Positions 1-8,048 of a stretch of DNA of 27,462 bases are shown piece by piece. This DNA comes from a virus, in UHGV virus genome UHGV-1840938; one strand, written 5' to 3'. The translations under genes and the position numbers were made by a program. Positions within the stretch are counted from its first letter, which is position 1; each line of letters opens with the position of its first letter. A model generated the notes under the pieces. That model was not told the origin of the DNA, ran no database searches, and saw only the letters and a list, made by a program, of their open reading frames with translations.

Positions 1-95
1 TGAATAAAACCACGAGTTCCTGGTGTGCCTTATTCGGCCTGCTAGTTCGAATTTAATTTACGGTTTTTATGTGGTTTTAGGGATAAACACAAGGA

Positions 96-170
96 TGGTG
101 TCCCCTGCAGGAATCGAACCTGCAATTAGCCCTTAGGAGGGGCTCGTTATATCCATTTAACTAAGAGGAC
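96..170 (-). tRNA. argW: tRNA-Arg (anticodon CCU), 75 nt, complete with CCA end
   Basis: Reverse complement folds as a cloverleaf: acceptor stem GTCCTCT/AGGGGAC, T-arm GCAGG-TTCGATT-CCTGC, anticodon stem AGCCC/GGGCT with loop CTCCTAA (anticodon CCT), 3' CCA. Matches E. coli argW as I recall it. Confidence 0.9.
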
Positions 171-290
171 ATTGTTGCGTATTGATTTTGGTTGTTCACC
201 ATATGACTGATAATACCGTCTTTATGGTTTTAAAATCAAGGTGTAAGTTCGTTTTTGTTCATGGTTGATTATCTTCTTTTGCGTTGAAAA

Positions 291-1535
291 GTGTTTTGTT
301 CACTTGCTAATGCGTACATATTGAGTACAGAATACATTATAAACTTGTGTACAGGATATAAAGCATTGGCACTGAGCGACACCAAACTACGAGGCCTCTA
401 CGGAAAACCCTACTCTGGCCCTGCTGAAATCACCGATGGTGACGGGTTAAGTGTGCGGATTACTCCAGCAGGAACTATCACGTTTCAGTACCGTTATCGC
501 TGGAATGGTAAGCCAGTACGTCTTACTGTCGGGCGCTATCCGTCTACTTCACTGAAGGACGCGCGTGTTATCGTCGGTGAGATGCGCGCATTGTACATGA
601 AGGGAGTTAACCCTAAAAATTATTTTGCGCCCAGTGACGGCGAACTGACATTAAAAGAATGTCTGGATCAGTGGTGGGATAAGTATGTTACTGATCTGAA
701 ACCCAATACACAGACGCTTTACAGATCCGTCGTGTACAACACTATGTACACACAGTTTGAAGGCTCGCCAGTTGCCAGTATCCCAGTATCGGCATGGGCT
801 CGTTTCTTTGACAAACAAGAAAGCCTCAACAAGAAAAAGGCTCGTGTTTTGTTGTTACAACTGCGTTCAGTTATTAACTGGTGTATCAGCCGCCAGTTAA
901 TCCCATCATGCGAATTACTCAAGCTTAGTGTTAAGAATATTGGGAAAAAACCAGATGTAGGGAGTCGTGTACTTACCTATACGGAACTGGCAAAAATTTG
1001 GCTGGCGCTGGAGAACTCAAAAGTAGTTACTTCCAACAAGGTGTTACATCAATTGCTATTGCTATGGGGGGCCAGACTTTCTGAGCTACGTCTCGCGACA
1101 GCCAGTGAGTTCAACATGGAAGATCTGGTCTGGACAACCCCAAAAGAGCATTCAAAAATGGGGAATATTATCCGGCGTCCGGTATTCACTCAGGTTAAAC
1201 CTTATATCGAGAGATTGCTTAATGCGGGTTTTGATGTGCTATTCCCCGGGCAGGAAATAGATAAACCTATTGATCGTTCGTCGGCTAATTTGTACATGAA
1301 AAAGTTAAGGGAGAAAATTGATATTCCTGAATGGAGAACGCATGATTTTAGGCGTTCTCTGGTAACGAATTTATCTGGGGAAGGAATTATGCCCCACGTC
1401 ACTGAAAAAATGCTGGGGCATGAACTTGGGGGAGTTATGGCCGTGTATAATAAACACGACTGGTTGTCGGAACAGAAAGATGCGTATGAGTTGTATGCTG
1501 ATAAAATTTTCTGGCACGCTAAACAGCTCGGTTAA
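291..1535 (+). CDS. int: Tyrosine-type site-specific integrase (P4/CP4-57-like); likely true start is TTG at 366 (AGGA 9 nt upstream), giving about 389 aa
   Basis: N-terminal arm-binding-like region (ALSDTKLRGL...TFQYRYRWNGK), C-terminal catalytic HDFRRS (H-x-x-R) and tyrosine in VMAVYNKHDW; lies beside the tRNA. Confidence 0.9.
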   Translation: MFCSLANAYILSTEYIINLCTGYKALALSDTKLRGLYGKPYSGPAEITDGDGLSVRITPAGTITFQYRYRWNGKPVRLTVGRYPSTSLKDARVIVGEMRALYMKGVNPKNYFAPSDGELTLKECLDQWWDKYVTDLKPNTQTLYRSVVYNTMYTQFEGSPVASIPVSAWARFFDKQESLNKKKARVLLLQLRSVINWCISRQLIPSCELLKLSVKNIGKKPDVGSRVLTYTELAKIWLALENSKVVTSNKVLHQLLLLWGARLSELRLATASEFNMEDLVWTTPKEHSKMGNIIRRPVFTQVKPYIERLLNAGFDVLFPGQEIDKPIDRSSANLYMKKLREKIDIPEWRTHDFRRSLVTNLSGEGIMPHVTEKMLGHELGGVMAVYNKHDWLSEQKDAYELYADKIFWHAKQLG

Positions 1536-1701
1536 TTCCTCCGGCTTTAAGCCATTGTTCAACGGCCTGACGACTATATCGCGCCGGATGAGTAAGTACT
1601 GGTTCCGGGAATCCGTGTTTTTTTCGCAAATTATACAAAGCTGTGCGCCTTTTTTGTAACAAATCAGAAACCTCTTTTTCGGTCATTAAGTTGACTTCCA
1701 T
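1519..1701 (-). CDS. AlpA-family HTH protein, likely excisionase or transcriptional regulator
   Basis: 60 aa; pattern LYNLRKKHGFPEPV...RYSRQAVEQWL typical of AlpA/Xis-type proteins; AAGGAG 9 nt upstream of the ATG; convergent with and overlapping the integrase 3' end by 17 nt. Confidence 0.7.
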   Translation of the reverse strand: MEVNLMTEKEVSDLLQKRRTALYNLRKKHGFPEPVLTHPARYSRQAVEQWLKAGGINRAV

Positions 1702-1779
1702 AGTATGCGCTCCTTTTCTACATGTATTTCAACAGCCTGATATCATCCACGCCCTAAAGGACGTGGATTCCCGCTACGT

Positions 1780-2148
1780 TCACTCTGACAATTCGTTGAT
1801 CAAGTCACGGTATTTATTCAGTTCTTGCAACGCCTTACATGCACCCTCCCATCGTTTCTGTTTCCGCCCGGCGCGGCGCGCTTCTTTCCGTGATTTACGT
1901 AGCAGGTCACCTATAATGTTGTGCTGAACTGGCTGAACTGGCTGAACTGGTTGAACTGAATCAATATCTGTTTTGCTTCCAACTCCCTCTACTGCCTGCC
2001 AGATGCCGTTTTTTACCTTTACGATCCCCTGGTTTTTCAACTTCCACAGCGTATCAATGACGTCATTCAAATCATTATTGAGACCTTTAGAAATGCTGTC
2101 GGCTGTTGCTTTTCCTAATTTGTTCAATTCTGTGAGTACGGCGTTCAT
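1780..2148 (-). CDS. Hypothetical protein with internal (QPV)n repeat
   Basis: 122-aa ORF with AGGAG 7 nt upstream of the ATG; contains VQPVQPVQPVQ encoded by a 9-bp tandem repeat. Confidence 0.6.
   Translation of the reverse strand: MNAVLTELNKLGKATADSISKGLNNDLNDVIDTLWKLKNQGIVKVKNGIWQAVEGVGSKTDIDSVQPVQPVQPVQHNIIGDLLRKSRKEARRAGRKQKRWEGACKALQELNKYRDLINELSE
1924..1959. repeat. 9-bp tandem repeat (CTGAACTGG x3 plus one imperfect copy) inside the 1780..2148 CDS
   Basis: Direct reading of sequence; in-frame, encodes QPV repeats on the minus strand. Confidence 0.9.
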
Positions 2149-2183
2149 TTTTTTCTCCTGATATTTTAATGTCGGTGGGGGTG

Positions 2184-2396
2184 TTATGCGATTGGTGAGG
2201 TGTCAGCTTCTTCTACCAGCTTTTCCAGTTCATCCAGCTTTCGGGAAAGAATTTCACCAAACAGATGAAGTTCTGCATCTGCTGTGATCGGGATTGGAAC
2301 AAAGCGTATTCCACTTCTGGCAAGTTGATTTGCGATTTCCAGACACTGCCTTAATTCAACTGGTGATGCCTTTGTCAACGTCGTTTTTTCGCTCAT
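2184..2396 (-). CDS. Hypothetical small phage protein (70 aa, starts MSEKTTLTKASPVELRQ)
   Basis: Internal ATG at 2396 with GGAGA 7 nt upstream; the ORF-track version (to 2480) would overlap the methyltransferase gene extensively. Confidence 0.5.
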   Translation of the reverse strand: MSEKTTLTKASPVELRQCLEIANQLARSGIRFVPIPITADAELHLFGEILSRKLDELEKLVEEADTSPIA

Positions 2397-2982
2397 TGGT
2401 TTTCTCCAGAAATTTAACAATACCCGGAACCATCTCAATGGATGGTGTTCCGCATTGGTTACCCCATACATCAAATCCATGCGAGGTGTGGCGGGCGAAC
2501 AGTTCTATCCGGGGAACATCGCCAAGAAGTTGCACAAGTTTTTCTCGCGCCATATCCGGCTTGCGGGAGTGATCAAGGCGTGGTGCAGTAAATGACTGAA
2601 TTATTCCGGCGTTAATGCGTTCAGGCAGATTTCCTTTCACTGCAAAAAGGCAGTCTTCGCTGTTAGCGCGAGTGGTGCTACCCATACCCATGACCAGCTT
2701 GTCGGTCTGTCTTTTCCCGCATTTGTTCCAGGTTAATCCTTTCATCGTCACCAGGCGAAAGCCCCATGCTTCTACAACCTTCAATGCTTCAAGTGGTTGT
2801 GTAGGCACCCACCACATAGCCAACAGGCAGTTATCTGCTGCCAGTTCCCATACCGGGAGGCGGCAGATATCGAGAAGGCTCATGACCGGATATTTAAAAC
2901 TTGCACCGCGTTGACCATCGGTTGCTTTGTCGCGGAATGTCCAAGGTGGATCTGCGTAAATGAGAGTGTATTTGTTAGTCAT
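2356..2982 (-). CDS. MT-A70-family N6-adenine DNA methyltransferase (phage orphan methyltransferase)
   Basis: N-terminal IYADPPW catalytic motif and overall MT-A70-like layout; start overlaps the upstream gene's stop (ATGA). Confidence 0.85.
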   Translation of the reverse strand: MTNKYTLIYADPPWTFRDKATDGQRGASFKYPVMSLLDICRLPVWELAADNCLLAMWWVPTQPLEALKVVEAWGFRLVTMKGLTWNKCGKRQTDKLVMGMGSTTRANSEDCLFAVKGNLPERINAGIIQSFTAPRLDHSRKPDMAREKLVQLLGDVPRIELFARHTSHGFDVWGNQCGTPSIEMVPGIVKFLEKTNERKNDVDKGITS

Positions 2983-3410
2983 AGCGCCTTTTCAAACTCA
3001 TCAATGTAAAGTCCTGCTTTAATCAGTCGGCGACGGCGTTTGGCCTTTTGCTCGTATTCCTCGCGGCAGTTTTTTGCTGCGTGTTCACGGCTTCTGCGAC
3101 TGAATGGAGGAACGGCATTGCGTGAACGAGGTGTGTCACGACGAGGATTTGATTCGAGGGAGAAAAAGCGATCAACGATTCCGGTGTCTGTGGTGAATGA
3201 CTCTGAAGCCTTGATTTTCACAACCTTACTGCCTTTTGTCAGGCTGCGAGCTACCTTGTTGAACTCGCAAAGTGAAACACCAAATTTCTCTGCTATTTCA
3301 CTGCCAGTAACAGGACGACCACGAGACTGAATCATCCAGGTGACGCGTTCTTTTAACCCACGGAAGACACCGGGCCTTCCAGAACGCCTGTAGAAAGCGA
3401 TCTGTTTCAA
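2979..3410 (-). CDS. Hypothetical basic DNA-binding protein (putative HTH); TTG start
   Basis: 143-aa ORF, GGAGA 8 nt upstream of TTG; HTH-like stretch VTGSEIAEKFGVSLCEFNKVARSL; translationally coupled to the methyltransferase gene. Confidence 0.55.
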   Translation of the reverse strand: MKQIAFYRRSGRPGVFRGLKERVTWMIQSRGRPVTGSEIAEKFGVSLCEFNKVARSLTKGSKVVKIKASESFTTDTGIVDRFFSLESNPRRDTPRSRNAVPPFSRRSREHAAKNCREEYEQKAKRRRRLIKAGLYIDEFEKAL

Positions 3411-3433
3411 ATTTTTGTCTCCAGATATGAAAA

Positions 3434-3452
3434 CCCCGACGGGATGTCGGGG
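3434..3452 (-). terminator. Candidate intrinsic terminator (weak U tract) downstream of the 3466..4173 gene
   Basis: Stem CCCCGAC/GTCGGGG with loop GGGAT; on the minus strand it is followed by TTTTCA. Confidence 0.35.
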
Positions 3453-3465
3453 GTAGTGGGGGAGG

Positions 3466-3755
3466 TCAGAGGCTTAAGGTGAAGCCTTTTCGGGAATTTC
3501 GATCTGACAGTCTTGAAATATCCTGTAGCGTGCGGCGCATTTCTTCCGTCAGATGTTTGAAGGCGTTAAATTCGGCGACAGCGGCGTCAACGTTATAGCC
3601 CTTGCTGTGTAGCTCGTTGAGGATGCGCATAGTTGGGCTTGGCATGTCGAAGAGCACAGAAACGTCCAGGTTAAGAGTTTTTCGATCAACATAGCTCATC
3701 ATGGAGTAGGGGTGATGCTCAGAAAACCACGAGAGAGGGTAGTTGATAGATAGCG
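3466..3755. repeat. Direct repeat copy A (~290 bp; near-identical ~125-bp core at 3533..3660) matching 12827..13116
   Basis: Core differs from 12893..13020 at only a handful of positions by eye; encodes the shared C-terminal domain. Confidence 0.85.
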
Positions 3756-4173
3756 TTGATTCTGGAAGCTGAAGTTGTTCTGGGATTTTTTGACTGAAAT
3801 AGCAGTCTTCCAGTTTTTCGAACACCTCCCACGCCCGATCGGTTTCGAGCATTTTTGCGTGACGGGCTGCGCCGCGTTCTGTCCAGAGAATGAGGGAGCG
3901 AACGTTACGGGCGATTGCCACAGAGTTACTTTGAGTAACCTTGTGACTCACAGAGTGACTTAAAGACACTCTGTGCTTAAACTCACGCAATTCTGCACCT
4001 TCCAGCAAAAAATAATGTTTACCAATAACAAAACGTTCATGGTTTCGGCTGTGGTTTTTGCGAATATTAGTTACTTCTGTGCCGTAAAGCTGCGCAAGAA
4101 GTTCAGTTGTAATAACGGGAATTTGGTTATGGCTGATCTGGGGTACTGTTTCTACGGTGATTTGAGTAGACAT
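3466..4173 (-). CDS. Phage antirepressor-like protein, ORF6N/KilA-N-type N-terminal domain plus a C-terminal domain shared with the Rha-family gene at 12827..13474
   Basis: N-terminus ITTELLAQLYGTEVTNIRKNHSRNHERF... resembles the ORF6N/KilA-N pattern; the C-terminal ~95 aa are near-identical to the 12827 gene; start chosen at ATG 4173 (GGAGAAG upstream) rather than ORF-track 4185. Confidence 0.75.
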   Translation of the reverse strand: MSTQITVETVPQISHNQIPVITTELLAQLYGTEVTNIRKNHSRNHERFVIGKHYFLLEGAELREFKHRVSLSHSVSHKVTQSNSVAIARNVRSLILWTERGAARHAKMLETDRAWEVFEKLEDCYFSQKIPEQLQLPESTLSINYPLSWFSEHHPYSMMSYVDRKTLNLDVSVLFDMPSPTMRILNELHSKGYNVDAAVAEFNAFKHLTEEMRRTLQDISRLSDRNSRKGFTLSL

Positions 4174-4445
4174 AGTCTTCTCCATATGTGTTTTAGTCTA
4201 CGCTCACCAGTTAGTAGCTGGTGATCGGGTGTCAACTAGAGCCACATATGAAGCTCCGGGCATATTCCCCTTGCGGGTGTTGTATTACGCCTCTCCACCC
4301 GACCTTTGTACGGATGTAACTATGCCAGATTGCAGGCATAAAAAAGCCGCAAGGCTATCGGGTGCGGTGACCGCATATGTGTTCTAGTGCGGTCAGTATG
4401 CGATAAGCGCTGCGGCATTGTCAAATCATGGGTATGAAAGATGGG

Positions 4446-4784
4446 TTAGTTTTCTCCTGGCTTCAGGCACTGGTAGAGTTTTGTCACGCTACCATTTAGT
4501 AATTGACCATACATGTTTTGCATCCCTTTAATACGGGTATGAGGGGTTAATTCAAGTGCGCGCTCATATCCCCAGCGAGCGCATACCCTACTGGCAATGC
4601 TGGTTGCTTCGCCCCAATGGGCATAACGACCATCGTCCGTCAAAGGGATGTTCGCTGAATGAACAAACCCCACCTCAACAGTTCCGGCGGATCTATTGGC
4701 ATCCACAACCTCAACAGGTTTACCTTTTGATGATGCGCATCCAGCTAAAATACAAACAGATACAATCAATGCTATATTTTTCAT
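4446..4784 (-). CDS. Putative lipoprotein (signal peptide with LAGC lipobox); likely moron
   Basis: N-terminus MKNIALIVSVCILAGCASS; AT-rich flanks; isolated transcription unit. Confidence 0.7.
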   Translation of the reverse strand: MKNIALIVSVCILAGCASSKGKPVEVVDANRSAGTVEVGFVHSANIPLTDDGRYAHWGEATSIASRVCARWGYERALELTPHTRIKGMQNMYGQLLNGSVTKLYQCLKPGEN

Positions 4785-4849
4785 TTCCTTCCTGTTCTCT
4801 CGTGATATTTATTAACAAAGATGTAAATTTTATATTGCTGAGTTAATAA

Positions 4850-5011
4850 ACATTCACCGTTTTACTGTCAATCATCCATCTGTCAAATCGTGATCTGGCA
4901 GGGAAACGCATCATTATGCTGCATAGCTTCATTAAGAAAACGCAGAAAACACCGCCAGCCGAACGCAAAAAAGCTGAAGCCAGAATGAAGGAGGTTAAGC
5001 ATGACTGGTAA
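4850..5011 (+). pseudogene. N-terminally truncated RelE/ParE (HigB-like) type II toxin remnant
   Basis: Open frame encodes ...GKRIIMLHSFIKKTQKTPPAERKKAEARMKEVKHDW, matching the conserved C-terminal motif of this toxin family; no plausible start yields more than 31 aa; stop overlaps the antitoxin start. Confidence 0.55.
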
Positions 5012-5309
5012 ACGCATTACACCTACCATGACACATGACGAAATGGCAGCCAAATGGATGGAGGATCCGGCTTTCAAAGCAGAATACGACGCCATCGCCG
5101 ACGAGTTCGCACTGCTTGATGAAATGCTGGCAGCACGAAAAGAAGCTGGCTTAACCCAGGCTGAAGTTGCCGAACGTATGGGAACAAAAGCGACTGCGAT
5201 CACCAGAATGGAAAGCAATCTTGCATCAGGTACAAGCGGCCCATCATTTGCCACACTGAAAAAATTCGCCCGTGCTACAGGGAAAAAACTCCAGATCCGC
5301 TTCGTTTAA
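5001..5309 (+). CDS. XRE-family HTH antitoxin (HigA-like antidote protein)
   Basis: 102 aa; GGAGG RBS upstream; HTH segment LTQAEVAERMGTKATAITRME; start overlaps the toxin-remnant stop in classic TA arrangement. Confidence 0.8.
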   Translation: MTGKRITPTMTHDEMAAKWMEDPAFKAEYDAIADEFALLDEMLAARKEAGLTQAEVAERMGTKATAITRMESNLASGTSGPSFATLKKFARATGKKLQIRFV

Positions 5310-5363
5310 CTCTCCACTACCGCGCCGTCATTCTGGCGGCGCTTTACCCCAGAGAAATATCAA

Positions 5364-5609
5364 TCACCGGATTACCACATCCCACTCCGGCTCCTGCCAT
5401 CTCAAATCCGGTGAATCATTTCTCTCAGGAATAACCATTACGTTCCTTTCCATCCGCTCCCTTTCTATCGCCATCACAGCCAATGCTGCAACCATGATGT
5501 ATTTTTGCTCGTCGGTTCCTGTTTCATAGCGCCACATGAGGGTAAACTCGGGGCGATCAGTAACCTCAATGATTTCGTTAATTTCTTTAATTTCGCGAGG
5601 AATATCCAT
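5364..5609 (-). CDS. Hypothetical acidic small protein (uncertain)
   Basis: 81 aa from the ATG in the CCATGG at 5606..5611, which also supplies the plus-strand start of the next gene; no recognisable motifs. Confidence 0.25.
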   Translation of the reverse strand: MDIPREIKEINEIIEVTDRPEFTLMWRYETGTDEQKYIMVAALAVMAIERERMERNVMVIPERNDSPDLRWQEPEWDVVIR

Positions 5610-6282
5610 GGGTTTAGTCTCCTTTGACATTACATGCCCGCACTGTTTAAAAGAGCGAGCTGTTATTGAGGCATTTGCCGAAAAACAAATTGAAAAAACA
5701 CCTCTTTTTAACGTCGCTTTTGTATGCAGAAGTTGTCATCAAGGAGGTGTTGCTATTGTTGAAATCCCATCAGACCACTATCACGGCCCTATGGCGGAAA
5801 GCCAGAAAAAAGACCTTGATATTCTGATTTCAGGAAATAGCCAGTACCGTTTCCGCAAGATCTATCCTGCGGTCAAAAAAATTACCGCACCAGAATCTAC
5901 GCCCCCGGTTGCAGACCGTACTTTTGTTGAGGCAAAAGAGGATTTACAGAGGAGGCGGTACGACACAGTGGTTATTCTTTGTCGCAGAGTCCTCGATATC
6001 TCAACGAAAAAACTGCTCGGCGATGAAGCAGGAAAAGAATCTCTGTCGCAACGTATTCAGATGATTTACAAAAAAGGCCTGATCACTGAACAGATGAAGG
6101 AATGGGCTCATATTGTACGAATAGATGCCAATAAAGCAGTTCATACAGATGAAGTATTCACACCAATTGAGGCAAGCCAGATACTGAGTTTTACCGAAAT
6201 GTTTTTAGTCTACGCCTTCACTCTGCCTGCAATGGTGGAAGCCAGATGTGACCAAAAAAGATCAGATTCAGCCTCTATATGA
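5608..6282 (+). CDS. Zn-ribbon plus DUF4145-like domain protein (candidate defence/abortive-infection protein)
   Basis: N-terminal CPHC...CRSC zinc-ribbon; C-terminal HIVRIDANKAVHTDEVFTPIEASQILSFTEMFLVYAF resembles DUF4145; GAGGA RBS before ATG 5608. Confidence 0.7.
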   Translation: MGLVSFDITCPHCLKERAVIEAFAEKQIEKTPLFNVAFVCRSCHQGGVAIVEIPSDHYHGPMAESQKKDLDILISGNSQYRFRKIYPAVKKITAPESTPPVADRTFVEAKEDLQRRRYDTVVILCRRVLDISTKKLLGDEAGKESLSQRIQMIYKKGLITEQMKEWAHIVRIDANKAVHTDEVFTPIEASQILSFTEMFLVYAFTLPAMVEARCDQKRSDSASI

Positions 6283-6355
6283 ATCTCTTTTCTGAACACG
6301 TAAATACTACTCCGACACACAGTAAGCCTCCCCCCCGTCATTCACGACGGGGATG

Positions 6356-7093
6356 TCATGTTCCAAACTCTGCGTTGTTCTCCGCCTCCAGGATTTCTTC
6401 GATCTTCTGTACTCCCCGATTATTATAGCGAAAGGTTTCTACCTGCTTATCCGAGTGCGGGGATTTGTCGATGAACCATTTCCCGTATTGTTCTGTTTTG
6501 AGCATGTAGGTATTGGCAATGCGACCAACCTTGTTAGCGGATATTTTGAGTTGCACTCCAACTTCTGACGCCGAATAGTAATGTTCATTGATCATCGGTA
6601 GCGGGATTACGTTAGCGCCTACAACGGGATTAACCAGGCTGGCGGCAACGACCTGTTTGGCTTCAGGGGCAAGGTTGGGGAGGAATCCGAAAAGGTCTTT
6701 CATTGTATCGACGGTCATTTTCAGCGCCCGCGCTTTGCGGAATTCCTCAAGGCCGTTAGTCGAATGTTTCGTGGTGGTTTTTTGTTGCAGTTGCTGTTGC
6801 ATTGACTCCAGTTGATCGACCAGCGAACGACGGACGGATTTAGATTCACGAGCGGCAACCCGAAGCGCTTGTTTATAGGTCATCACAATAACAACCTGAT
6901 CCGCACCACCTTTTTTCTTATCCATGGGGGTTACGAAATTTTCGTAACCCTCCCCCTCAAGTTCATCTTTGATGCGTGCAATGAAGTCGTTGTTGCGTAC
7001 TTCTTTTTCACCGCACAGTCTCCGCGCTTCATTCACCATTTTCAACAGAGCCTGGCTGTCGATAGTTCCATTTTTCATTATATTATTTTTCAT
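6356..7093 (-). CDS. Phage antirepressor/regulatory-like protein (KilAC/ORF6C-like C-terminal domain)
   Basis: 245-aa ORF; C-terminal YSASEVGVQLKISANKVGRIANTYMLKTEQYGKW...TFRYNNRGVQKIEEIL resembles antirepressor C-terminal DNA-binding domains. Confidence 0.6.
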   Translation of the reverse strand: MKNNIMKNGTIDSQALLKMVNEARRLCGEKEVRNNDFIARIKDELEGEGYENFVTPMDKKKGGADQVVIVMTYKQALRVAARESKSVRRSLVDQLESMQQQLQQKTTTKHSTNGLEEFRKARALKMTVDTMKDLFGFLPNLAPEAKQVVAASLVNPVVGANVIPLPMINEHYYSASEVGVQLKISANKVGRIANTYMLKTEQYGKWFIDKSPHSDKQVETFRYNNRGVQKIEEILEAENNAEFGT

Positions 7094-7182
7094 CGTGTTA
7101 ACCTCTCAAGCTCGCCGTAGCGAGTTCGCATAAAAGAAATCCCCGCGAGTGCGAGGATTGTTAGTTGCGCTCTGCTGCTGAT

Positions 7183-7464
7183 TTAGCCATCAATATTTAC
7201 CTTTATCGCGTATACCTTTACCGGTTTATCACCGAAGTGCGGATGTGTGATTGTCTTGATTTCATATCCGCCATACGGAATATCAATTCTGCGGCTGGAA
7301 TCGTCGCGCTTCGGATATCCCTTTGTGATAATCAGGCGGTCATATTCCCGGAACATGATTCGCTTATTCCAGTAGTCATTACACAAGCGATACTCTTCCG
7401 TTTTCTCCCCGCGAATCATGGCATCGAAGTATTCACCTTTGACGGCAAGTTGCAGGTTAGCCAC
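7183..7464 (-). CDS. Small phage protein, ASCH/DUF3850-like
   Basis: 93 aa; pattern LAVKGEYFDAMIRGEKTEEYR; typical lambdoid early-left small gene. Confidence 0.6.
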   Translation of the reverse strand: MANLQLAVKGEYFDAMIRGEKTEEYRLCNDYWNKRIMFREYDRLIITKGYPKRDDSSRRIDIPYGGYEIKTITHPHFGDKPVKVYAIKVNIDG

Positions 7465-8047
7465 GGTTAACCTCCTGAGGCGGTTCTGGTAGCGGCATCC
7501 AGTGGGTTACTTTCGATGCCGGTTCTTCCCCATTGTCAGTAACTGCCCACCATTTGTTTCTCGACCAATCGTAATACCCTTCGAAGGTATCGCACTCAGT
7601 CCAGCCGTAAGACTTACCCCAACACCAAACATACTGTTTATCGTTCGGCATTCGCTCACTACAGCTTATCCAACCATCCGGAGTTACCGGATAGTTGTCC
7701 GATAGCGCGTTCTGCAGTCGCTCCAGTTTCACGTATTCCTGAACCCTGTTTCCGTCGCATGCCTGAAGCCATTGCGCAGCCTTTTGTGCATCAGTGTGAA
7801 AGGCGCAAGTGCGTCCGTCATCAAATTGCATTTCGTAGAGGTCAGCAACCTGTTCAAACTGCGTTTGTGGCAACCTGTAAGTTTGGCTTACAGGTTCTGC
7901 ACTATCAGCTTCGCGCCGCTTCTGTAGCTCTGCTGCCATTGCTCTCACGACTTCAACTGGTGCCCTTGCAGCAAACTCTATGTTGGTGATCAGCTCATTA
8001 AGATATTGCTCGCTGGGATACTGTTTCTTATTGGTAATAGTGGTCAT
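7457..8047 (-). CDS. DUF551 domain-containing phage protein
   Basis: C-terminus WISCSERMPNDKQYVWCW...VTHWMPLPEPP matches the DUF551 signature. Confidence 0.75.
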   Translation of the reverse strand: MTTITNKKQYPSEQYLNELITNIEFAARAPVEVVRAMAAELQKRREADSAEPVSQTYRLPQTQFEQVADLYEMQFDDGRTCAFHTDAQKAAQWLQACDGNRVQEYVKLERLQNALSDNYPVTPDGWISCSERMPNDKQYVWCWGKSYGWTECDTFEGYYDWSRNKWWAVTDNGEEPASKVTHWMPLPEPPQEVNRG

Positions 8048-8048
8048 C

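What the first reader, a model, noticed from the sequence alone, without database searches (positions are those of the whole stretch)
4446..5309. Lipoprotein moron beside a decapitated RelE/HigB-like toxin with an intact antitoxin
Only the C-terminal part of a RelE/ParE-family toxin (ending ...LHSFIKKTQKTP...) remains at 4850..5011, yet its XRE-HTH antitoxin (5001..5309) is intact with the classic stop/start overlap. The missing toxin 5' end coincides with an AT-rich insertion carrying an oppositely oriented lipoprotein gene. An orphan antitoxin could act as an anti-addiction or cross-regulating factor.
Basis: partly seen in the sequence, partly recalled or inferred. Interest (0 to 1): 0.45.

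Follow-up and report, generated by a model that had tools for sequence, protein, structure and literature searches.

The report
Decayed HigBA remnant beside lipoprotein gene
A prophage toxin–antitoxin pair has lost its promoter and the first two-thirds of its toxin gene but keeps an intact antitoxin, next to a small YecR-like outer-membrane lipoprotein gene; this is the usual way such modules decay, not a new system.

Summary
Window 4895-5011 encodes only residues 72-109 of a 109-aa Gp49/HigB-type toxin that is full-length in E. coli EC2 and Shigella phage POCJ13. The overlapping 102-aa HTH antitoxin (5001-5309) is intact and identical in protein sequence to the EC2 antitoxin, which sits beside an intact toxin. 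The divergent gene (4446-4784, minus strand) is a YecR-family lipoprotein with an LAGC lipobox.

The interpretation needs three corrections:
- The low-GC stretch is only the spacer and signal-peptide codons (4745-4893). Its GC (31%) matches the native higB upstream region.
- The 31 nt left of the junction resemble native higB upstream DNA. This suggests a roughly 300-bp deletion or mosaic event that also removed the promoter and a 16-bp palindrome likely to be the operator.
- The same 1-kb cassette, with an identical junction, occurs in two prophage positions and at least three chromosomal sites. It is very young (1 difference in 616 bp), so antitoxin intactness says nothing about selection.

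Orphan antitoxins are abundant in E. coli, and the same slot in O157:H7 prophages holds other toxin-antitoxin debris. Verdict: an ordinary decay intermediate beside a lipoprotein cargo gene. An anti-toxin role is possible but has no support here.

The parts
4333..5342 (.). About 1-kb cassette (lipoprotein gene, spacer, truncated higB, higA, hairpin) that recurs as a unit
   Evidence: 97.3% identical block in nin-region loci L010-L012, and identical in early-left loci L003-L009. The right edge at 5341/5342 is also the recombination point in L004, L007 and L036.
4446..4784 (-). YecR-family outer-membrane lipoprotein gene (112 aa; lipobox LAGC, Ala at +2)
   Evidence: ORF. PF13992 YecR E 8e-4, below the cut-off, and 8 of 9 family members hit it. 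62% identical to the PGAP-named 'YecR family lipoprotein' WP_032666102.1. AlphaFold model pLDDT 83; best PDB match is chain 1 of 7bgl, the Salmonella flagellar LP-ring entry (E 4.8e-3).
4785..4893 (.). AT-rich (31% GC) divergent spacer. Holds a candidate leftward promoter for the lipoprotein gene (-35 TTGACA 4871->4866, 17-nt spacer, -10 TATTAA 4848->4843). Only weak rightward promoter-like sites (TTTATT-17-TATATT, 4808-4836). Also holds the inverted repeat 4805-4816 / 4842-4853.
   Evidence: Composition. Relaxed promoter scan; the strict scan found none here. Inverted repeat I2. No homologue of 4740-4900 in E. coli complete genomes or plasmids.
4866..4896 (.). 31-nt block resembling the native higB upstream region; it ends exactly at the junction
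   Evidence: 25/31 identical to L013:3671-3701 and L001:2671-2701. Local score 32 against dinucleotide shuffles of mean 17.9, sd 2.6, with 2 of 2000 reaching it.
4894..4896 (.). Junction (TCT shared by both parents; TCTnnCAG microhomology)
   Evidence: Alignments. BLAST homology to intact loci starts at 4894.
4895..5011 (+). higB remnant: codons 72-109 of a 109-aa Gp49/HigB toxin. The ATG-initiated ORF 4916-5011 is 31 aa.
   Evidence: 1 nt difference in 118 from the EC2 toxin.
5001..5309 (+). Intact HigA-type HTH_3 antitoxin (102 aa), with Shine-Dalgarno AAGGAGG at 4988-4994
   Evidence: Pfam HTH_3 E 4e-11. phrog_1373 E 4e-37. Matches HigA of S. pneumoniae HigBA, 6af3_B, E 6e-4. Protein identical to the EC2 antitoxin.
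5322..5342 (+). Stable 9-bp hairpin after higA (possible terminator; weak U tract)
   Evidence: I7.: -16.5 kcal/mol, z -4.6.

Best explanation
This is a decay intermediate of a prophage type II HigBA toxin-antitoxin module, lying beside an unrelated YecR-family lipoprotein cargo gene.

What the sequence shows:
- A single deletion or mosaic recombination event removed the higBA promoter, a 16-bp palindrome that is probably the HigA operator, and codons 1-71 of the 109-codon toxin.
- The last 38 toxin codons are now fused to the AT-rich spacer upstream of the divergently oriented lipoprotein gene.
- The event most likely spanned about 300 bp between short TCTnnCAG repeats.

What I infer:
- The remnant cannot be toxic. 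It lacks the region aligned to the antitoxin-binding N-terminus and to four of the six proposed catalytic residues of the solved homologue.
- The antitoxin survives because losing the toxin first is the only viable order of decay, and because the event is very recent. It may be made at a low level from weak spacer promoters, but it has no target in this element.
- The lipoprotein is the functional cargo. It probably has its own sigma-70 promoter, is exported, lipidated and sorted to the outer membrane, and is expressed in the lysogen.
- The cassette spreads among lambdoid prophages by homologous recombination through its flanks and through higA.
For: - Truncation and full-length comparators.
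- Both partners match the solved S. pneumoniae HigBA complex: toxin 6af3_A at E 8.7e-6 and antitoxin 6af3_B at E 6e-4. In the alignment, E66, R68, D61 and R73 of that toxin fall in the deleted part, and only F90 and K92 fall in the remnant. The HigA-contact residues F17, M20, D40 and L44 are N-terminal (PMC7984235).
- Intact loci carry a perfect palindrome, ATAACAAATTTGTTAT, 11 nt upstream of the higB ATG. It is absent from the whole window at up to 3 mismatches.
- The junction-adjacent 31-nt block resembles native upstream DNA.
- The cassette has an identical junction in two prophage positions and at least three chromosomal flanks.
- It is very young. Between the two contexts there are 0 differences in the lipoprotein coding sequence and the remnant, 1 in the spacer, and 13 in higA, of which 12 are third-codon positions. 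That pattern indicates allele exchange with intact loci.
- The intact module is the common state. The exact antitoxin protein is indexed in 485 blocks of the collection against 50 for the lipoprotein, and 10 of 10 long contigs carrying the antitoxin have the intact toxin.
- Orphan antitoxins are abundant in E. coli (PMC10790755). The equivalent slot in an O157:H7 prophage holds a ParD-type antitoxin, a 69-bp relic of this higA and another lone HTH antitoxin.
- Lipoprotein homologues sit in cargo hot spots of Salmonella and E. coli prophages, with or without neighbouring toxin-antitoxin modules.
Against: - No undeleted ancestor (lipoprotein gene next to a full-length higB with this spacer) was found in any collection.
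- The 31-nt block is only 81% identical, while the DNA to the right of the junction is 99.6% identical. A simple in-place deletion therefore needs a second mosaic boundary inside the deleted segment.
- The cassette moves as a unit into two prophage positions with both antitoxin alleles intact, which is also what selection for the antitoxin would produce.
- Promoters are consensus matches only. Expression of either gene is not shown.
Confidence: 0.7

Rival explanations
1. The orphan HigA is kept by selection as a trans-acting anti-toxin. It would neutralise the cognate HigB of co-resident or incoming lambdoid phages, acting as an anti-addiction or counter-defence factor. The lipoprotein-antitoxin cassette would then be a functional mobile unit.
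For: - The antitoxin protein is identical to one paired with an intact toxin, so it should bind that toxin.
- It keeps a strong Shine-Dalgarno sequence.
- The cassette occurs with an identical junction in two prophage positions and several chromosomal sites, and both antitoxin alleles are intact.
- There is a precedent for phage orphan antitoxins that defeat toxin-antitoxin defence (DarTG1; PMC11825919).
Against: - The cassette is too young for intactness to carry information: 1 difference in 616 bp outside higA.
- The native promoter and operator are deleted, and only weak promoter-like sites remain.
- The cognate toxin is rare: 19 of 5426 complete E. coli genomes hold at least 80% of higBA, and 73 hold any match.
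- The higA differences between contexts look like exchange with intact alleles, not post-truncation evolution.
Confidence: 0.15
2. HigA has been re-used as a stand-alone transcription factor. It would control the divergent lipoprotein promoter or other prophage genes through the inverted repeat in the spacer.
For: - The arrangement is divergent.
- A 12-nt inverted repeat (4805-4816 / 4842-4853, 92% complementary) overlaps both the candidate lipoprotein -10 element and the weak rightward -35 element.
- A TAACAAA half-site, like that of the native palindrome, is present at 4813-4819 (read).
Against: - The native 16-bp palindrome is absent at up to 3 mismatches anywhere in the window.
- The spacer to the left of the 31-nt block shows no significant similarity to the native operator region (z -0.9).
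- The half-site resemblance is at chance level for AT-rich DNA.
- The spacer has no homologue elsewhere from which conservation could be judged.
Confidence: 0.1
3. The toxin is still functional, either as a naturally short peptide or through a non-canonical start.
For: The reading frame is open from 4850, and the remnant keeps the most conserved Gp49 motif, LHSFIKKTQKTP.
Against: - Two in-frame stops lie at 4844-4849.
- The family profile is 108 aa and is matched end to end by the 109-aa homologue.
- Only residues 72-109 are encoded anywhere in the window.
- The proposed catalytic arginines and the antitoxin-binding region map to the missing part.
Confidence: 0.01

Closest known systems
Intact prophage higBA of E. 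coli EC2 (WP_001624509.1 / WP_001624508.1) and Shigella phage POCJ13 gp23/gp22
   Same: 99.6% and 97.3% nucleotide identity from the junction through higA and, for POCJ13, on through the 81-aa and DUF4145 genes. The antitoxin protein is identical to the EC2 one. The gene overlap is the same.
   Different: The window lacks the promoter, the 16-bp palindrome and toxin codons 1-71. Upstream there is a lipoprotein gene in place of the 117-aa and 223-aa hypothetical genes.
Streptococcus pneumoniae HigBA (PDB 6AF3/6AF4; PMC7984235)
   Same: Both the full-length toxin homologue and the window antitoxin match the two chains of this complex by sequence. The gene order is the same: toxin first, then an HTH antitoxin that binds promoter palindromes.
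   Different: The relationship is distant (E 1e-5 and 6e-4). Here the toxin is reduced to its last 38 residues, so this is not a working pair.
Orphan antitoxins in E. coli genomes (PMC10790755) and phage-borne orphan antitoxin-like counter-defence (PMC11825919)
   Same: An antitoxin gene without a functional cognate toxin on a mobile element.
   Different: No function has been tested here. The phage example concerns DarTG1 and lytic T4-like phages, not a HigA in a temperate prophage.
YecR, the lipoprotein bound to FlgH on the Salmonella flagellar L ring (PDB 7BGL; bioRxiv 10.1101/2020.12.05.413195)
   Same: Small lipobox protein. The match to the YecR Pfam model is sub-threshold. The best PDB fold match of the model is chain 1 of the LP-ring entry 7BGL. 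That this chain is YecR is my inference from its 84-residue length and the paper's description.
   Different: The branch is divergent and rare: 9 clusters among 5.8 billion proteins. It is carried on prophages and plasmids rather than in the flagellar regulon. Binding to the L ring has not been tested.
Lipoprotein morons of lambdoid phages, such as lambda Bor (from my own knowledge, not tested here)
   Same: A small lipoprotein gene present in some and absent from other otherwise homologous prophages, with a promoter-like site of its own.
   Different: Different protein family. Base composition is not atypical and no clear terminator was found.

Membership tests
Type II HigBA toxin-antitoxin module (Gp49/PF05973 toxin + HTH_3 antitoxin) | Toxin gene upstream of, and overlapping, the antitoxin gene | tested here: met
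   The remnant frame ends at 5011 and the antitoxin ATG is at 5001, an 11-nt overlap identical to that of intact loci.
Type II HigBA toxin-antitoxin module (Gp49/PF05973 toxin + HTH_3 antitoxin) | Complete toxin (about 108 aa) with its catalytic and antitoxin-binding regions | tested here: not met
   Only residues 72-109 are encoded. The Pfam match covers profile positions 61-90 of 90 only. The family profile is 108 aa long. Four of six proposed active-site residues map to the missing part.
Type II HigBA toxin-antitoxin module (Gp49/PF05973 toxin + HTH_3 antitoxin) | HTH antitoxin homologous to a HigA of a characterised pair | tested here: met
   HTH_3 E 4e-11. 6af3_B HigA E 6e-4. Protein identical to the antitoxin paired with an intact toxin in EC2.
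Type II HigBA toxin-antitoxin module (Gp49/PF05973 toxin + HTH_3 antitoxin) | Autoregulated promoter with a palindromic operator upstream of the toxin gene | tested here: not met
   The palindrome ATAACAAATTTGTTAT is present in three intact loci and absent from the window at up to 3 mismatches. That it is the operator is my inference.
Type II HigBA toxin-antitoxin module (Gp49/PF05973 toxin + HTH_3 antitoxin) | Growth arrest by the toxin and rescue by the antitoxin | not testable with these tools
   Requires expression experiments.
YecR family lipoprotein (PF13992) | Signal peptide with a lipobox cysteine | tested here: met
   MKNIALIVSVCILAGC-ASS. The LAGC lipobox cysteine is invariant in all 9 homologues.
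YecR family lipoprotein (PF13992) | Score above Pfam's gathering threshold | tested here: not met
   20.1 bits against a cut-off of 27. 8 of 9 homologues match at E<0.01, with a best E-value of 1.6e-5.
YecR family lipoprotein (PF13992) | Sequence or fold similarity to recognised YecR proteins | tested here: met
   62% identity (E 2e-53) to the PGAP-annotated 'YecR family lipoprotein'. The top Foldseek PDB hit is chain 1 of the LP-ring entry 7bgl (E 4.8e-3, probability 1.0, TM 0.46/0.60). No hit reached E<=0.001, so the fold evidence is modest.
YecR family lipoprotein (PF13992) | Association with the flagellar L ring (FlgH) or the flagellar regulon | not testable with these tools
   Known for Salmonella YecR. 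Nothing here bears on it.
Prophage moron (independent cargo transcription unit) | Present in some and absent from other otherwise homologous phage genomes | tested here: met
   Absent from 5426 complete E. coli genomes and from the INPHARED phages, whose flanks do match. Present in at least 23 contigs read.
Prophage moron (independent cargo transcription unit) | Own promoter and terminator | tested here: inconclusive
   A TTGACA-17-TATTAA site was found only with relaxed rules; the strict scan found none. No canonical terminator follows the gene, only a hairpin.
Prophage moron (independent cargo transcription unit) | Base composition different from the neighbouring genes | tested here: not met
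   The coding sequence is 45.7% GC and the window is 46.5%. Only the spacer and signal-peptide codons are AT-rich.
Anti-addiction / counter-defence orphan antitoxin | Antitoxin without a functional cognate toxin on the element, and a cognate toxin circulating in the host population | tested here: met
   No toxin N-terminal coding sequence in the window. Intact higBA is present in E. coli but rare, in 19 of 5426 complete genomes, and in many draft assemblies.
Anti-addiction / counter-defence orphan antitoxin | Antitoxin expressed, and maintained by selection after toxin loss | tested here: inconclusive
   No convincing promoter. The cassette has almost no post-truncation divergence on which to measure selection.

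The most novel reading that the evidence does not exclude
The lipoprotein / truncated-higB / higA cassette could be a selected, mobile two-gene unit. The orphan HigA would disarm HigB toxins of rival lambdoid prophages, giving a temperate-phage counter-defence based on a type II antitoxin. The YecR-like lipoprotein would alter the cell envelope, for example by docking on the flagellar L ring.
Probability: 0.1. Interest if true: 0.55.

Novelty: new member of a known kind. Interest (0 to 1): 0.2.

Why it matters
Mostly as a clean, mapped example of how prophage toxin-antitoxin modules decay. The toxin and its promoter go first, the antitoxin lingers, and the remnant is then shuffled between prophage positions by recombination. 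It warns against reading function into orphan antitoxins when the truncation is recent.

If the antitoxin were shown to be expressed and protective, it would extend phage-borne orphan-antitoxin counter-defence to type II HigBA systems of temperate phages.

Separately, a rare prophage- and plasmid-borne branch of the YecR lipoprotein family may be worth testing for effects on flagella or phage adsorption.

Tried and rejected
Search for an undeleted ancestor (lipoprotein gene beside a full-length higB):
- The lipoprotein protein against GTDB species-representative genomes found no relative.
- The junction 24-mer found nothing in the GTDB genomes or in IMG/VR.
- A spacer 25-mer in JGI metagenomes found one locus, which carries the same truncated cassette.
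- The spacer alone against E. coli genomes found nothing, and against plasmids found only chance hits.
- The closest lipoprotein homologues (71-74% identity) sit on contigs too short to help, or next to AntA.

Ideas tested and dropped:
- That the whole spacer is homologous to the native higB upstream region. The global alignment without the 31-nt block is not better than shuffles (z -0.9).
- An operator-like match at 4803-4832 to the native palindrome region. It is not significant and not collinear.
- An internal higA promoter inside the higB remnant. None was found even with relaxed rules.
- A known non-coding RNA within 4446-5309. Rfam found none; the only hit lies outside that range.

Uninformative or unavailable:
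- PHROGs and PADLOC gave nothing for the lipoprotein.
- The afdb50 fold library was unavailable.

Self-correction: I first read 407 of 5426 E. coli genomes as carrying the TA module. Most of those matches were to the unrelated conserved leader at 4204-4434. The higBA-only query gives 73 genomes with any match and 19 with at least 80% coverage.
Full report
**What is in the sequence**

The region lies in the early-left arm of a lambdoid prophage. The window is 100% identical over positions 1-10784 to the ENA contig held as L008. The gene table for L008, converted to window coordinates, gives this order:
- integrase, then an HTH_17-domain protein (probably excisionase)
- DUF1627, DUF1382, an MT-A70 methyltransferase and a 143-aa protein
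- an ORF6N antirepressor (3466-4185, minus strand)
- the lipoprotein gene (4446-4784, minus strand)
- the antitoxin (5001-5309, plus strand)
- an 81-aa gene, a DUF4145 gene and further early genes

**The toxin is truncated**

- The toxin frame is open only from 4850, after stop codons TAA TAA at 4844-4849.
- It matches Pfam Gp49/PF05973 only over the last third of the model: positions 61-90 of 90, E 6.7e-8, 32.9 bits against a cut-off of 23.9.
- DNA identity to intact loci begins at 4894. It is 97.3% to Shigella phage POCJ13 and 99.6% to E. coli EC2.
- PGAP annotates the EC2 toxin as a 330-bp, 109-aa RelE/ParE-family toxin. That protein matches phrog_2523 end to end (1-108 of 108, E 4e-45).
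- tblastn of the 109-aa toxin against the whole window finds only residues 72-109, at 4895-5008 (37/38 identical, T73A), and no other fragment.
- The first ATG/GTG/TTG-initiated ORF in the remnant frame is 31 aa (4916-5011).

**The antitoxin is intact**

- It is 102 aa with an HTH_3 domain (E 4e-11) and matches phrog_1373.
- AAGGAGG lies 6 nt before its ATG, and it overlaps the toxin frame by 11 nt.
- Its protein sequence is identical to the EC2 antitoxin, with 1 synonymous nucleotide difference.
- The full-length toxin homologue and the window antitoxin match the two chains of one solved complex, S. pneumoniae HigBA: 6af3_A at E 8.7e-6 and 6af3_B at E 6e-4.
- I mapped that paper's residues onto the alignment, allowing for a 20-residue tag offset that reproduces all six residue types. 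E66, R68, D61 and R73 fall in the deleted 71 residues. Only F90 and K92 fall in the remnant. The HigA-contact residues F17, M20, D40 and L44 are N-terminal (PMC7984235). The remnant is therefore almost certainly inert. This is an inference from the alignment.

**What happened at the junction**

- Low GC (29-31%) is confined to 4745-4893. The mature lipoprotein coding part is 48.5% GC and the window is 46.5%. The native higB upstream region in EC2 is equally AT-rich, at 31.6%. AT-richness is therefore not evidence of a foreign insertion.
- The 31 nt immediately left of the junction (4866-4896) align 25/31 with EC2/POCJ13 sequence 88-118 nt upstream of the higB start codon, and the alignment ends exactly at the junction. 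The score is 32; 2000 dinucleotide shuffles give mean 17.9, sd 2.6, and 2 reach it.
- The two parental sequences share TCTnnCAG at the breakpoints.
- The rest of the spacer shows no significant similarity.
- Intact loci carry a perfect 16-bp palindrome, ATAACAAATTTGTTAT, 11 nt upstream of the higB ATG. It is absent from the entire window at up to 3 mismatches.
- The simplest reading is a deletion or mosaic event of about 300 bp that removed the promoter, the probable operator and codons 1-71.
- There is a caveat. The block is only 81% identical, whereas the right side is 99.6% identical. No undeleted ancestor was found. I put the in-place deletion model at about 0.5.

**The cassette recurs**

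- The exact lipoprotein protein is indexed in 50 blocks of the assembly collection.
- In seven of the loci shown, the cassette sits in the same early-left context as the window, but beside three different chromosomal flanks: LysR/GntP, a LacY-type permease, and a second integrase.
- In three loci shown (three more similar places not shown), it lies in the nin region, between NinB/HNH/NinE and AntA.
- The shared block is window 4333-5342. The right edge, 5341/5342, lies just after a stable hairpin and is also a recombination point in L004, L007 and L036.
- Between the two contexts there are 0 differences in the lipoprotein coding sequence, 0 in the toxin remnant, 1 in the spacer and 13 in higA. 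Twelve of the 13 are at third-codon positions, and there is one amino-acid change, T78I, which POCJ13 also has.
- This points to one recent truncation event followed by spread through recombination, including exchange of the higA allele with intact loci. Because almost no divergence has accumulated since the truncation, an intact antitoxin is expected under neutrality and is not evidence of selection.

**How common each state is**

- The exact antitoxin protein is indexed in 485 blocks. All 10 long contigs shown carry an intact 109-113-aa Gp49 toxin next to it.
- Among 5426 complete E. coli genomes, none has the lipoprotein cassette.
- 19 of those genomes have at least 80% of higBA. Others have a variant with a diverged toxin 5' end.
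- Many of the remaining rows listed, largely O157:H7 and other STEC strains, keep only the last 69 bp of higA.
- In one such O157:H7 prophage, the same slot after the ORF6N gene holds a ParD-family antitoxin, a 90-aa protein with no Pfam match, the 69-bp higA relic, and an unrelated lone HTH_3 'HigA family antitoxin'.
- This slot is therefore a graveyard and exchange point for toxin-antitoxin parts.

**Expression**

- The strict promoter scan found nothing in the spacer.
- A relaxed scan found a good leftward candidate for the lipoprotein gene: TTGACA, a 17-nt spacer, then TATTAA (4871->4843). Its -35 element lies inside the 31-nt block shared with EC2.
- The relaxed scan found only weak rightward candidates that could serve higA, such as TTTATT-17-TATATT at 4808-4836, and none inside the higB remnant.
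- Whether higA is transcribed is therefore open.

**The lipoprotein**

- It has a classical lipobox (LAGC) with Ala at position +2, which predicts outer-membrane sorting. This rests on established Lol sorting rules.
- The family is rare: 9 clusters among 5.8 billion proteins, all from E. coli or Salmonella where a source gives a name.
- It scores below threshold on Pfam YecR, as do its homologues; 8 of 9 match at E<0.01.
- It is 62% identical to a plasmid protein that PGAP names a YecR family lipoprotein.
- An AlphaFold model (pLDDT 83) has as its best PDB match chain 1 of the Salmonella LP-ring entry 7BGL (E 4.8e-3, probability 1.0, TM 0.46/0.60). I take this 84-residue chain to be YecR, which decorates FlgH on the L ring. 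The fold evidence is modest.
- Homologues at 66-72% identity lie just downstream of the Q antiterminator gene (L015-L021, L030-L031, L033-L034). Several of the Salmonella loci also carry an intact, divergently oriented HigB-like/HTH or ParDE module nearby, and others have none. A more distant homologue is chromosomal, next to an AAA_13 gene.
- The association with toxin-antitoxin modules therefore looks like co-residence in cargo hot spots, not a functional link.

**Verdict**

This is a recent decay intermediate of a HigBA module, fused to the promoter region of a YecR-family lipoprotein cargo gene and shuffled among lambdoid prophages.
- It is a new instance of well-known phenomena: orphan antitoxins, lipoprotein cargo genes and mosaic junctions.
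- A trans-acting anti-toxin or regulatory role for the orphan HigA cannot be excluded, but nothing here supports it.
- Interest is low, at 0.2.

Noticed in passing
window 4215-4304 (minus strand): Full-length Rfam hit to sRNA-Xcc1 (RF02221; 65.4 bits against a gathering score of 53; E 3.5e-11). It lies in the 5' leader of the ORF6N antirepressor gene, downstream of a sigma-70-like promoter, TTGACA-18-CATACT, at 4424->4395. The surrounding 4204-4434 is about 91% conserved in many of the 151 lambdoid/Stx phage records matched, and 72-82% conserved next to most lipoprotein homologues. It looks like a conserved leader RNA of prophage antirepressor genes.
   Followed up: partly
window 4446-4784 (minus strand): The lipoprotein belongs to a rare prophage- and plasmid-borne branch of the YecR family. 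Salmonella YecR binds FlgH on the flagellar L ring. I found no paper on phage-encoded YecR-like proteins. Whether it docks on the flagellar bushing or affects phage adsorption is unknown.
   Followed up: partly
window 5364-6282; L013:4471-5389: An 81-aa gene (phrog_8371) and a DUF4145 gene (phrog_1305; weak PADLOC PD-T7-4 hit, E 9e-4) follow higA in both intact and truncated loci. They travel with it as a conserved block. This may be a small defence-type island.
   Followed up: no
L048 (E. coli O157:H7 NZ_CP089270.1, 1544092-1545070): The equivalent prophage slot holds a ParD-family antitoxin followed by a 90-aa protein with no Pfam match. Next come a 69-bp relic of this higA's 3' end and an unrelated lone HTH_3 'HigA family antitoxin'. 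This shows recurrent turnover of toxin-antitoxin parts at this site.
   Followed up: partly
L015-L018, L030-L031, L033-L035 (Salmonella prophage loci): Lipoprotein homologues (66-70% identity) lie downstream of the Q antiterminator gene. The repeated layout is: antitoxin-toxin pair (minus strand), a small unknown gene, the lipoprotein gene, then a Bro-N gene (in L033-L035 a Hexapep gene lies between). The toxin-antitoxin pair is either HigB-like/HTH_3 or ParDE.
   Followed up: no
L047:2250-2820 (IncA/C-type plasmid pTB-nb1): The plasmid yecR-family gene, 62% identical to the window protein, is immediately followed by an N-terminally truncated HTH-domain pseudogene and is flanked by IS elements. 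This is another lipoprotein gene beside a broken HTH gene.
   Followed up: no
window 4805-4816 / 4842-4853: A 12-nt inverted repeat (92% complementary, 25 nt apart) in the AT-rich spacer. It overlaps the candidate lipoprotein -10 element and a weak rightward -35 element. It could be an operator for an unknown regulator.
   Followed up: partly
L013:3683-3724: In intact loci, a 17-nt imperfect inverted repeat (82% complementary, 8-nt loop) lies upstream of higB. The left breakpoint of the inferred deletion falls in its loop.
   Followed up: no
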